From the NCBI GenBank assembly GCA_964016885.1, contig OZ024741.1, forward strand, positions 349,928,001 to 349,992,000: a stretch of 64,000 nucleotides of DNA. Direction: 5' to 3'. A program made the translations under genes and the position numbers. Position 1 is the first letter of the stretch; every line of letters starts with the position of its first letter. Below, in pieces: positions 3,653 to 7,690 of this stretch. Source of the stretch: Eledone cirrhosa (taxonomy: Eukaryota). Under the pieces are notes generated by a model. That model had not been told where the DNA came from. It was given only the letters and a program-made list of their open reading frames with translations, and did no database searches.

Positions 3653-3855
3653 TTCTTCTTCTTCTTCTTCTTCTTCTTCTTCTTCTTCTTCTTCTTCTTC
3701 TTCTTCTTCTTCTTCTTCTTCTTCTTCTTCTTCTTCTTCTTCTTCTTCTTCTTCTTCTTCTTCTTCGTCTTCTTCTTTTTGCTCTTGGTTTACCTCTGGA
3801 TCTCCTGCTGGTTCGCTTTGCCAGTAAAATCTGTCCAGTGATTTTTTCTTTAGAC
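3653..3855 (-). pseudogene. 3' part of an RTE-clade LINE remnant with a (GAA)n tail
   Basis: The minus strand reads SKEKITGQILLAKRTSRRSRGKPRAK and then (GAA)n. It continues in frame from the 7238-7690 fragment. Confidence 0.75.
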
Positions 3856-6257
3856 CAGGCATGTCAAACTGAGGATCCCCCAAGGGCCGCATGGGTCACA
3901 TATGTGTTGTCTGAGGGCCGCACACCACAACTAATTGTGTACATTACAACTAATTAAAGTCATTTAATAAAATTTATTGCAGAAAAATTTGTTACTTAAA
4001 TTTAGAAACATACAATGTACATACAAATGTTTTAGCAGCATTCATGAATACAGAGTAATGGAGTGGTTTGACAAAAAAACTAAAATTTTAAATGGCAACA
4101 TATACTTGCAGCTTGCAACAGCAACAAATACAAAAATTACAAAAAATACAACAGTTCAAAACTGAACATTTATTTGCTACTATATAACCATTTTTAGTGT
4201 TTTGTCCTGAGGCTTGACACCTCTTTTTGTCGACAATGTTTGGTATGTCTGGCTGAAATGTCTGTACACTTCCGACTTTGATCGGAGATGACAAATGTTG
4301 ATCAGTCAACCTTCATCTCTGAGAAGTTTTTGTTAATTTCATGAAGGAAAATAACTGTTCACACACATAGGTAGAACCAAACATTGCCATAATGTTTGTG
4401 GCAAAATTTCTGAAGTTTTTGAACTTTTCAGGAAAGTATGAAAAGAAACCAGGTATCCCCATTTCAAGATACTTTGTTCTGAGTGTAGAATCTGACTGCA
4501 TTTCCAATAGTTCCATCTGCAGGCTTTCCTCTTCCTTGGCAACATCAAAGGTGAATGGTGCTAAGAATAATGCAAACTGATGTTCAAAAGTTGAGAAATT
4601 ACAAAATCTTTCCTGAAATTCCTTTGACAACAATTCCAGGTGAGTGCCATACTTAGCAAAGCTAATTACAGAATCAGTATTGGCAGTGTTTTTCAGCTCT
4701 TTGCACGTAGGAAAATGAATTAAATTTTCCTTTGACAACTGTGACTTCCATAAGCTTAGTTTTCTAATGAAGCAATTGATGTCATCATACAACCGAGTGA
4801 TGAGTTTGCTTTTACCTTGTAATTTCAAATTAAAATCAGTTAATTGTGCAGCAATTAACTGATCTTGGAGCCAACTTTCATCTTTTATTTCATCTGTTTT
4901 GTCCTTTCATCTCCAAAAACAATTATCTTGTCTCAACAAATAGAATCTTTTCAGCACTTAGTGACATGACAACCAGCAGACTTCTGTGTAGAATGGAACA
5001 TCGGTGAACTGATTATCCATATCTTCTGAACTGACGGCGGTTTATAACATGGCGTCTGATATAGTTCACTGTCTTTGTGACCAAACTAAGCACATGATGT
5101 AAATTTAAAATCTTTGCACAGAAATTTTGCTGTTGAATAATACAGTGAAAATGTGCAAATGATGAATCTGGATGCGAGTTTTCTATTTTAGTTCGTAACT
5201 TGGCAGTAATACCATTATGTCTGCCAACCATATTCGCAGCACCGTCAGTAGATAAGCATGCAAGTTTACGCAAATCAAAACCATAGTTATGCAGAACCTG
5301 CTCGACCTTCTCAAAGATGTCTTGGCTTGTTATAATGTCATGCATTGGGACCAGTTCAATCAGTCCTTCATAAGTATTAAATTCACTGCCACGGGCCCTG
5401 ATGAAGAATGCAAGCTGTGCTATTCCAGTGATGTCAACGATCTCATCAATAGCAATAGAAAAATGTTCAAACCTTGATGATACAGCCTTCAACTGTTGTT
5501 TCAGATCACCTGACATTTCATCAATCCATTCAGCAACAGTGTTCCTGGTTAATGAAATGTCTTTGAATAACTGTACTTTCTGTGGACATACAATTTCAGC
5601 TGTTTTTACAAGGCATTGCTTTACAAAATCTTCTTCATTGTAAGATTTCCCACTCATGGCGATTATTCGGCTGAGTTCATAGCTTGCAGCAACAGAAGCG
5701 ACATCTCTTCCTGAATTTATATAAAACAGGTCTGTTGCTGTGTCAAGTTAGCCTTCAATTCCTTGAGTCTTGAAACACGCATTGGGCCTTCATATTTATC
5801 GTAAGATCGATGGTTCGTTTCATAATGTCTTTTCAAATTGCACTCTTTTGGCGTGGTGATGCAGTTGTTGCAAATTGAACAGTGAATATTTCCGTTCACC
5901 ATTGATTTCCCACCGTTGATTCACTGTAATTCCCACTTTTCTTGAAACACTCGCCCTTCTTCGTTCAATTTCCCTTTTCTCTTAGCTGGGGAAGCACTAG
6001 CCATTTTAAAAGAAAGAACTTTTGAAATTTTGAAAGAAAGTTTTCTGTTTACAACTGTTAATGAGCTGCGCGTGATTCGTCGGCATTTAAAAGTAGTTGA
6101 CAAAGAACGCACAAAAAAACAATCGTATCGAAAGATTTTTTTAAATTTTATATTACGAAGATAAAAAATGCTCGCGATGTAAAAACCTTTGTGCGGGTCG
6201 CAGGTGTGCTTGCAAAGGGCCAGATGCTGCTCGCGGGCTGCATGTTTGACATGCCTG
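3856..6257 (-). mobile_element. hAT DNA transposon (Buster/SPIN/Charlie-like), decayed autonomous copy
   Basis: TIRs are caggcatgtcaaac (3856) and gtttgacatgcctg (ends 6257), with subterminal 'gggccgca' motifs and transposase ORF pieces inside. Confidence 0.92.
4215..6003 (-). pseudogene. hAT transposase (GTF2IRD2/SPIN-like), frameshifted
   Basis: ORF pieces give RVFQEKWE, CSIC...NLKRHYETNH (BED-like finger), FSIAIDE, STDGAANM, HCIIQQ and FGSTYVCEQLFSFMK (hATC). Confidence 0.92.
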
Positions 6258-6296
6258 GTCTAGATAGATGTAGTTTATGGAACACCCAAATGATTT

Positions 6297-6757
6297 AGAA
6301 GTCGACCTTAAGTAGGAACAATAACATTAAAAAAGACATGAACGACATGAACCTTATCATTTTGTATTGAATATTTTGAAAGTAAGTTTATAAGTATGAA
6401 TTTTCATAAGATTTTCGTAGCTGTCTCTGTGGCCTATCGGTGGGTACTAGAGACGGTGGAGATCCTGGTCTTGGGTTCAATCCTGGTCAAGAGGTACATG
6501 TAATCACTTTCAGTTTTTATTTTACATCCCGTAAAAAGAAACTGAAAAGGTTTACCGGGAACCCTATTTCCGACTAGGATCGAACTTCAGACCAGGTTCA
6601 CGACCGTCTATGATTCCTCCAACTAGGCCGCCGAGACAGCTACAAAAGTATAATGAAAATTAATAATTATAAACCTACTTACAAAATCAAAGTTTAAAAT
6701 ATGTGGTGTCGTTCATGGGTTTCCTAGTGCTATTAGTCATATTTAGGGTCGACTTGT
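6297..6757. repeat. Diverged fold-back element with tRNA-like segments in both arms
   Basis: Arms run gtcgacc...gtagctgtctc...gggttcaatcctggtc...ttcagttttt and aaactgaaa...gactaggatcgaac...gagacagctac...ggtcgac. Confidence 0.7.
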
Positions 6758-7029
6758 CAATCTTCTGGATTTTTGGTAAAAACCTTATTATTCCTATGTG
6801 TGTTTAACTGTCCAATTAATTTAATTTAATTATTTTAACAAACAAATAATATATATATAATGCCAATCATTGTAAGTTTGAATCTGACATGCAAAAACAT
6901 ATATATATGAATAAGGTAAGCCCAAATGATAGTAGATTCAAATATCACAGAGAGAAAGAAACGGGGAAGGGGAGAAATGAGATGCGACAGAAATGAAACA
7001 TGGATTACAGGTTAAAATATAGTCTAGAT

Positions 7030-7229
7030 CAGGCATGTCAAACTGGGGGTAATCCGAGGGCCAAATAGGTCACATATGTGTTGTTTGAGGGCCACACACG
7101 ACAACTAATTGCACACATTACAACTAATTTTTTAAATTTATATTACGAAAATAAAACATGTTCGCGCTGTAAAAACCTTTGTGCGGGCCGCAGGTGTGCT
7201 TGTAAAGGGCCGCATTTTTGACATGCTTG
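7030..7229 (-). mobile_element. 200-bp hAT MITE, internal-deletion derivative of 3856-6257
   Basis: 7030-7128 resembles 3856-3955 and 7128-7229 resembles 6137-6257. The TIRs are the same. Confidence 0.9.
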
Positions 7230-7237
7230 CTTTAGAC

Positions 7238-7690
7238 ATTCTAACCCCATGCCCGTAGTATCAGAGCTGACACCTCTCGATTCGGAGAAGTAGTTTCTCT
7301 ACTTGGAGGAATGCCTTGATCTCCTAGCTACGCACTCTATCGAGTAACGTTACTCCAAAGACCCTTCGAAGGAAATCAATTTCTCTTGATTGTATTCGTG
7401 ATCGTATTCTTTCTGTCATTACCCAAGATTCATGACCATAAGTAAGGGTAAGCACAAACATCGAATTGAGGATAGCGAGTTTTGCTTTTTCACTTACCTC
7501 CCTTTTTCAGATGACCGAGTACTGAATCTGGCACATTACTGCACCAGCTCCAGTAATTCTTGCATTTAATTTAGCCTCCTGCTTTCCACCATTCATGAAA
7601 ATAGCCTCGAAGATATAAGACTTTATCCACCCACTACAGTGTAACCTCACTCACGTGTAGAGTGTACTGCGCAGGCTCTTGAGAGGACGT
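7238..7690 (-). pseudogene. RTE-clade LINE remnant (post-RT region)
   Basis: The minus strand translates to ...LTYGHESWVMTERIRSRIQ...FLRRVFGVTLLDRVRS...YYGHGVRM, typical of RTE. Confidence 0.8.

What the first reader, a model, noticed from the sequence alone, without database searches (positions are those of the whole stretch)
3848..7237. hAT composite with nested TSDs carrying a 756-bp passenger and splitting an RTE frame
Seen: the order is ctttagac [hAT 3856-6257] gtctagat - passenger 6266-7021 - gtctagat [MITE 7030-7229] ctttagac. Neither element has matching TSDs on its own. The outer 8-mers match each other, and so do the inner 8-mers. Removing 3856-7237 rejoins the RTE frame exactly (YYGHGVRM-SK-EKITGQILLAKRTSRRSRGKPR). 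Inference: either a tandemly duplicated element-plus-flank moved as a macro-transposon, or a small DNA circle bearing one element integrated by recombination with a resident copy. Both models predict that the passenger is circularly permuted. As weak support, its fold-back arm seems to continue across the 7021-to-6258 join.
Basis: partly seen in the sequence, partly recalled or inferred. Interest (0 to 1): 0.75.

Follow-up and report, generated by a model that had tools for sequence, protein, structure and literature searches.

The report
Amplified two-transposon composite family, animal genome
Two related jumping elements, one long and one tiny, bracket a piece of a third repeat, and this three-part unit recurs at dozens of places in the genome, each with its own insertion scar, so it likely jumped as one package, a design familiar from bacteria and maize but seldom reported as an amplified family in animals.

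Summary
The structure is real at the stated coordinates and is not a one-off. It is one of at least 57 loci of a composite: Buster-type hAT (2.4 kb), GTCTAGAT, passenger, GTCTAGAT, 200-bp MITE. In 18 copies with clean outer ends the outer 8-mers are locus-specific and match (13 within one mismatch; cross-locus 2 of 306), so the unit moved whole. Shared private alleles in passenger, MITE and long element, including one transposase stop (21 of 24), point to a single, non-autonomous founder. The passenger is one period of an abundant repeat (970 empty sites) opened at its best target site. It is permuted against the monomer, but native tandem copies are already colinear with it, so no circle is needed. 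Long element and MITE are different lineages, so plain tandem duplication is not enough. The most likely origin (about 0.45) is one MITE insertion doubled with the repeat unit, moved as MITE-passenger-MITE, then the left MITE swapped for a long element. Reversed-end transposition into a circle remains open (0.2). It works like maize Ac/Ds macrotransposons and resembles KolobokP. The cargo is repeat DNA, not a gene.

The parts
3848..3855 (+). Left outer target-site duplication CTTTAGAC
   Evidence: single 8-mer at the empty site in RTE paralogues
3856..6257 (+). Long Buster-type hAT element, 13-bp TIRs; decayed transposase gene on the minus strand (about 6004 to 4190, three frames, 7 stops in the aligned pieces)
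6258..6265 (+). Left inner 8-mer GTCTAGAT, the same in family copies
6266..6849 (+). Passenger part Rb: the stretch that follows GTCTAGAT in the native repeat; 18 nt near its start are lost in this copy between two GATG; holds an imperfect fold-back (about 6274-6525 against 6531-6780)
6850..6859 (+). (TA)n run at the boundary between repeat units; site of unrelated later insertions in other copies
6860..7021 (+). Passenger part Ra: the stretch that precedes GTCTAGAT in the native repeat
7022..7029 (+). Right inner 8-mer GTCTAGAT
7030..7229 (+). 200-bp MITE of the same hAT family, composite-specific haplotype (GGAT form)
7230..7237 (+). Right outer target-site duplication CTTTAGAC
3770..3847 (-).
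7238..7600 (-). Upstream piece of the interrupted RTE-type LINE

Best explanation
This is one copy of a family of at least 57 loci in which a long Buster-type hAT and a MITE bracket one or more periods of another repeat, and the unit likely moved whole by its two outer ends using transposase supplied by other copies. Shown: the family, its locus-specific outer TSDs, the fixed inner 8-mer, shared private alleles and a shared transposase stop. Inferred (about 0.95 whole-unit movement, 0.9 single founder): cut-and-paste by the long element's 5' end and the MITE's 3' end. Inferred origin (about 0.45): one MITE landed in GTCTAGAT, the best target in the repeat unit; it was doubled, either by tandem duplication of the unit or by a local hop to the same site in a neighbouring unit; MITE-passenger-MITE transposed; and gap repair with a template switch later replaced the left MITE with a defective long element, which became the main master. 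The stated confidence is for the family-level claim; the rivals concern the origin step only.
For: 29 right and 30 left junctions genome-wide at up to 1 mismatch, controls 0; 57 loci mapped after dropping 2 chance hits. Outer TSD mismatches in 18 copies: 0 in 7, 1 in 6, 2 in 3, 3 in 2; cross-locus mean 4.0, 2 of 306 within one. Passenger allele A in 45 of 48 composite units against 4 of 68 native; Ra124 G 20 of 25 against 5 of 74; Rb561 A 17 of 21 against 5 of 40. Right MITE allele T in 19 of 23 against 5 of 57 solos. Transposase stop at codon 93 in 21 of 24 composite long copies against 2 of 6 solos; changes even over codon positions, 669/573/576. For the origin: left MITEs of L036, L038 and L059 carry the right-MITE haplotype; GTCTAGAT takes 26% of predicted hits in the unit, and 0.3-1.5 independent hits are expected genome-wide, so one hit is ordinary and two adjacent ones are not; native tandem units exist; L053 shows a switch from the long 5' end onto the right MITE and its flank.
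Against: No founder with Ra-GTCTAGAT-MITE-GTCTAGAT-Rb and no three-element multimer was seen among the 59 junction hits (the 4 fuzzy candidates have no Rb after the MITE). MITE-left copies are a minority (5 loci), and L036 and L038 carry the derived AA alleles, so they could be later conversions from long to MITE rather than relics. Trees are star-like and give no order of events. Three left junctions (L078, L081, L082) have native-type passenger alleles, from conversion or a second origin. The A allele also occurs in native repeats: most of 28 new probe hits were native. Many left-junction loci show no right MITE in the stretch fetched; of 4 extended, 2 were completed and 2 were not.
Confidence: 0.85

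Rival explanations
1. Reversed-end transposition: a long element and a MITE already lay in direct orientation; their inner ends were excised together and inserted at GTCTAGAT in a circular (or tandem, then recombined) copy of the repeat, creating both inner junctions in one reaction.
For: Explains two different element lineages, one shared inner 8-mer and the lack of any simple insertion at the site. Circle formation and permutation of the inter-transposon segment are reported for Ac/Ds (PMC3470690; PMC4270019). The likely ancestral GG right MITE occurs in one-unit copies such as this one.
Against: Needs a close pair plus a circle trimmed to whole repeat periods. No shared remnant or footprint lies between Rb and Ra; inserts there are unrelated later elements. 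MITE-left copies and empty internal junctions need extra steps.
Confidence: 0.2
2. One reading: a circle or array carrying one MITE in the repeat recombined with a resident long element through their shared 3' ends.
For: Gives long-passenger-MITE in one step from a single MITE hit; proposed for KolobokP and IS26 (PMC9587614).
Against: The left 3' end is long-type and the right 3' end MITE-type up to column 176 of 220, so the crossover is confined to about 44 bases. The reciprocal order MITE-passenger-long was seen in 0 of 27 repeat-linked right junctions. L059 does not fit one crossover into a resident solo MITE.
Confidence: 0.2
3. Two independent insertions, one long and one MITE, at the same 8-mer in neighbouring units of a native tandem array, then macro-transposition.
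For: Colinear donors with two sites exist (3 of 38 unselected native loci; more among best hits). The site is the top target in the unit. A three-unit donor would give the two-unit form directly.
Against: No other insertion at this site among about 970 counted empty sites. The per-site chance is about 4 in 10,000 for a MITE and lower for a long element (from; rough, copy numbers assumed).
Confidence: 0.1
4. Assembly artefact or chance neighbours.
For: Three of four junctions were not bridged by short-read contigs.
Against: Same architecture with distinct matching TSDs on many contigs; empty RTE site; one outer junction bridged.
Confidence: 0.01

Closest known systems
Maize Ac/Ds macrotransposons and compound Ds-l4-483 (PMC3260210, PMC9910405; passages seen)
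   Same: Two hAT elements in direct orientation move the DNA between them by their outer ends, with an 8-bp TSD.
   Different: In the passages seen these are single alleles or single elements. Here one founder was amplified to at least 57 loci in an animal genome, with a fixed inner target scar and variable passenger number.
KolobokP composite-like transposons (PMC9587614; abstract and passages seen)
   Same: Flanking units with their own TIRs around an internal region; solo flanking units; forms with repeated internal regions joined at a single target motif; found in animals including molluscs.
   Different: Different superfamily. KolobokP flanks are identical and the transposase lies inside. 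Here the flanks are usually unequal, the transposase gene is in the left flank and is defective, the interior is non-coding repeat, and no multimers were seen.
Pack-TIRs (PMC8277862; passages seen)
   Same: TIR transposon carrying foreign DNA; multicopy cases have distinct TSDs but were only 4 (1.4%) in that survey, with 3 copies in the frog hAT example.
   Different: Pack-TIR breakpoints lie inside one element with microhomology and the cargo is non-TE host DNA. Here two complete elements flank another repeat at target 8-mers.
Drosophila Ising TE between foldback elements (PMC6431247; passage seen)
   Same: Animal composite moved by two flanking DNA transposons.
   Different: Hundreds of kilobases long and foldback-based; not a short amplified hAT family.
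Buster/SPIN hAT family (PMC3517528; passage seen)
   Same: nnnTAnnn 8-bp TSD, GTF2IRD2-like transposase, MITE derivatives.
   Different: The composite form; none described in the papers listed by my searches.

Membership tests
Buster-type hAT | 8-bp TSD with central TA | tested here: met
   T in 64 and A in 65 of 67 sites; consensus stated in PMC3517528
Buster-type hAT | Short TIRs at both ends | tested here: met
   13-bp CAGGCATGTCAAA
Buster-type hAT | Transposase of SPIN/GTF2IRD2 type | tested here: met
   PF18658 E 1.1e-05, below the curated cut-off; 25 homologues, several named GTF2IRD2-like or SPIN-DOC-like; family majority aligns over all 612 aa of P0002 at 85%
Buster-type hAT | Intact transposase (autonomous member) | tested here: not met
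   window copy has frameshifts and stops; shared stop at codon 93 in 21 of 24 composite copies
Ac/Ds-type macrotransposon | Two elements in direct orientation, outer 5' and 3' ends bounded by one TSD | tested here: met
Ac/Ds-type macrotransposon | Same intervening DNA found at new loci with new TSDs | tested here: met
   18 clean copies on several contigs
Ac/Ds-type macrotransposon | Movement observed with transposase present | not testable with these tools
   copies are about 5-7% from their majority sequence
KolobokP | Identical long terminal direct repeats | tested here: not met
   long against MITE in most copies; MITE on the left at 5 loci
KolobokP | Transposase and His-Me nuclease in the interior | tested here: not met
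   no stop-free frame of 60 aa lies within the passenger
KolobokP | Repeated interiors joined at one target motif | tested here: met
   16 loci with an empty internal junction, each a single 8-mer without an indel footprint
Pack-TIR | Non-TE host cargo inside one element | tested here: not met
   cargo is a repeat with 970 counted sites lying inside another TIR element; both flanks are complete elements

The most novel reading that the evidence does not exclude
The family is a fossil of transposase-driven capture of a DNA circle in an animal germline: the inner ends of a long hAT and a MITE opened a circular repeat copy in one reaction, and the product then bred as a bacterial-style composite with variable passenger number, a hAT counterpart of IS26 translocatable units and KolobokP.
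Probability: 0.2. Interest if true: 0.7.

Novelty: new variant of a known kind. Interest (0 to 1): 0.5.

Why it matters
It shows that paired hAT elements can found a lasting, amplifying composite family in an animal genome. About half of the independent long insertions sampled are of this kind (7 of 13 among the 30 best long hits). It gives a natural series (long or MITE on the left; one, two or more passenger units) for asking how four available ends are chosen: the right MITE's main haplotype was in 0 of 57 sampled solos. Repeat annotators would split these loci into three unrelated pieces. The cargo is non-coding repeat and the family is old and defective, which limits the biological impact.

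Tried and rejected
Fold-back continuation across the join: not above shuffles. Passenger as Helitron, SINE or structured RNA: no Rfam match near threshold (best E 0.088, 20.7 bits against a gathering score of 117); it lies inside a TIR element with CAGTGGCGGACTGG ends, superfamily not determined. Insertion hotspot: no simple insertion at the site. Locus-by-locus duplication of the passenger: within-locus units mostly as divergent as between loci (0.07-0.175 against mean 0.131; three loci near 0.07). Shared founder junction between Rb and Ra: none. The probe had the wrong 5' context (1 hit) and was discarded, with its partner unused; one search replaced it. Trees unresolved. No solved structure matched P0002. 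No RNA holder listed. Rows dropped: L052 and L055 (chance junction matches, no repeat), L039 (overlap of L038), L100 (false composite call), degenerate-TIR copies L032, L034, L051, L062 and inverted L037 left out of the TSD count; the C25 copies were counted as one insertion. Huang and Dooner 2008 and Wang et al. 2022 were not held and are known only as cited. Literature searches listed no amplified animal hAT composite; Repbase, Dfam, subscription journals and supplements were not seen, and a consensus may already be deposited there.

Full report
Observation. All coordinates hold. The two 8-mers each occur only twice on the + strand of the window, at 3848/7230 and 6258/7022; both elements have the TIR CAGGCATGTCAAA; the MITE matches the two ends of the long element; and the interrupted LINE frame rejoins as stated. 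Seven independent paralogues of the LINE show one 8-mer at the same place, so CTTTAGAC is a true target duplication. One contig of a public short-read run bridges the right outer junction; the others were not formally bridged.

The elements. The long element is a Buster/SPIN-type hAT: a weak Spin-doc zinc-finger match, homologues named GTF2IRD2-like, and TSDs with a central TA in 64-65 of 67 sites, the Buster signature given in PMC3517528 (passage). The family has 1001 exact 5' ends. All 29 best relatives of the MITE are solos, and none of 40 unselected 5' ends (known composite ends had been set aside) was full length or next to the passenger.

The passenger. It is one period of an abundant repeat. 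Native copies read Ra-GTCTAGAT-Rb, with 970 empty junctions at up to one mismatch. The repeat lies inside another non-autonomous TIR element that sits in microsatellites, and it is bounded by (TA)n runs. The passenger is Rb-(TA)n-Ra, so it is permuted against the monomer. But native tandem copies give the same order between two GTCTAGAT sites (3 of 38 unselected loci; many of the best hits). Permutation therefore does not by itself show a circle. The proposed fold-back continuation is not above chance.

The family. Junction searches gave 29 right and 30 left junctions, controls 0. With 2 chance hits removed, overlaps merged and loci added, I count 57 loci; two lie on small contigs and may be haplotype duplicates, and a one-mismatch probe misses roughly half of copies this old (my estimate). 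In 18 copies with clean outer TIRs the outer 8-mers differ by 0 (7), 1 (6), 2 (3) or 3 (2) bases, against a cross-locus mean of 4.0. L032, L062 and the later-inverted L037 also match but have damaged ends. The right element is always MITE-sized (or truncated); the left is long or a deletion form, or a MITE at 5 loci. Sixteen loci hold a further, empty internal junction with a single 8-mer and no indel footprint. Among the 30 best long hits, 7 independent insertions are composite and 6 are solo.

Single founder. Composite passengers share alleles rare in natives: 45 of 48 against 4 of 68, 20 of 25 against 5 of 74, and 17 of 21 against 5 of 40. Both units of two-unit copies carry them. A junction-independent probe for the first allele showed it also in a native subfamily (most of 28 new hits), so the other two alleles are the better markers. 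Right MITEs share their own haplotype (19 of 23 against 5 of 57 solos). Left long copies share five alleles against most solos and a stop at transposase codon 93 (21 of 24 against 2 of 6), with substitutions spread evenly over codon positions. The master was thus likely defective and moved in trans. Copies are 4.6% (long element) to 7.1% (passenger) from their majority. Exceptions: L078, L081 and L082 have native-type passenger alleles.

How it works. Inferred: transposase from other copies pairs the long element's 5' end with the MITE's 3' end and moves the whole unit, as for maize Ac/Ds macrotransposons (PMC3260210; PMC9910405; passages). The inner 8-mers are relics of the founding event and are carried along unchanged.

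How it arose. Left and right elements belong to different lineages at both ends, so duplication of one element is not sufficient. GTCTAGAT is the top target in the repeat unit (26% of predicted hits), and 0.3-1.5 independent hits are expected genome-wide under assumed copy numbers; no simple insertion at the site was seen. One hit is ordinary, two adjacent hits are not. I favour one MITE hit, doubling with the unit or a local hop to the equivalent site, movement as MITE-passenger-MITE, and later replacement of the left MITE by gap repair (0.45). Support: left MITEs of L036, L038 and L059 carry the right-MITE haplotype, and L053 records a template switch between the two ends. Element replacement by gap repair is recalled from P-element work, not from a call. 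Against: these few copies could be later conversions, and trees give no order. Reversed-end insertion into a circle (0.2) has maize and rice precedent (PMC3470690; PMC4270019; PMC3744419; passages), but no circle junction remnant was found. Circle or array recombination with a resident long element (0.2) is limited to about 44 bases. Two independent hits: 0.1.

Comparison. Closest in mechanism are Ac/Ds macrotransposons. Closest in architecture among animals is KolobokP (PMC9587614, abstract and passages), which shares repeated interiors joined at one target motif but differs in superfamily, symmetry and coding. Pack-TIRs (PMC8277862, passages) are rarely multicopy and are built differently. 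The Drosophila Ising TE (PMC6431247, passage) is an animal composite of another kind. Ten searches listed no amplified animal hAT composite; repeat databases and subscription journals were not seen. Earlier scan notes held nothing on this family.

Verdict. The cargo is repeat DNA and the family is old, so interest is moderate (0.5).

Noticed in passing
G000:C1:441.188-441.219 Mb (L104, L124): Tandem array of period about 1684 bp built from the TIR element that hosts the passenger repeat; units 0-1% apart in L104.
   Followed up: partly
L248 4616-8304 (G000:C133): Satellite of about 30 copies of a 119-bp unit taken from one arm of the passenger's fold-back.
   Followed up: no
G000:C25:19.2-23.9 Mb (L202, L203, L205-L207, L211-L222, L224): One solo long hAT insertion with TSD ATGTAGGT copied at least 18 times together with its flanks.
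   Followed up: partly
window 5013-5747: The transposase piece is 77% identical over 62% of its length to a protein named from the nematode Trichuris suis and 76-81% to three unnamed proteins; a lead for horizontal transfer or contamination, untested.
   Followed up: no
L085-L123: A modular non-autonomous TIR element with ends CAGTGGCGGACTGG and CCAGTCCGCCACTG sits in TA/TG microsatellites, nests in its own TA runs and varies in internal modules; superfamily not determined.
   Followed up: partly
L037 4992-7918: A composite whose left part was later inverted; outer 8-mers still match within one base.
   Followed up: partly
L198 and L050: A solo long element and a composite's left element form the only strongly supported pair in the tree (support 1.0): escape by inner ends or gene conversion.
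   Followed up: no
L152, L160, L056, L059, L068, L080, L252: MITE copies with a tandemly expanded subterminal segment of about 31-40 bp (positions 28-67).
   Followed up: no
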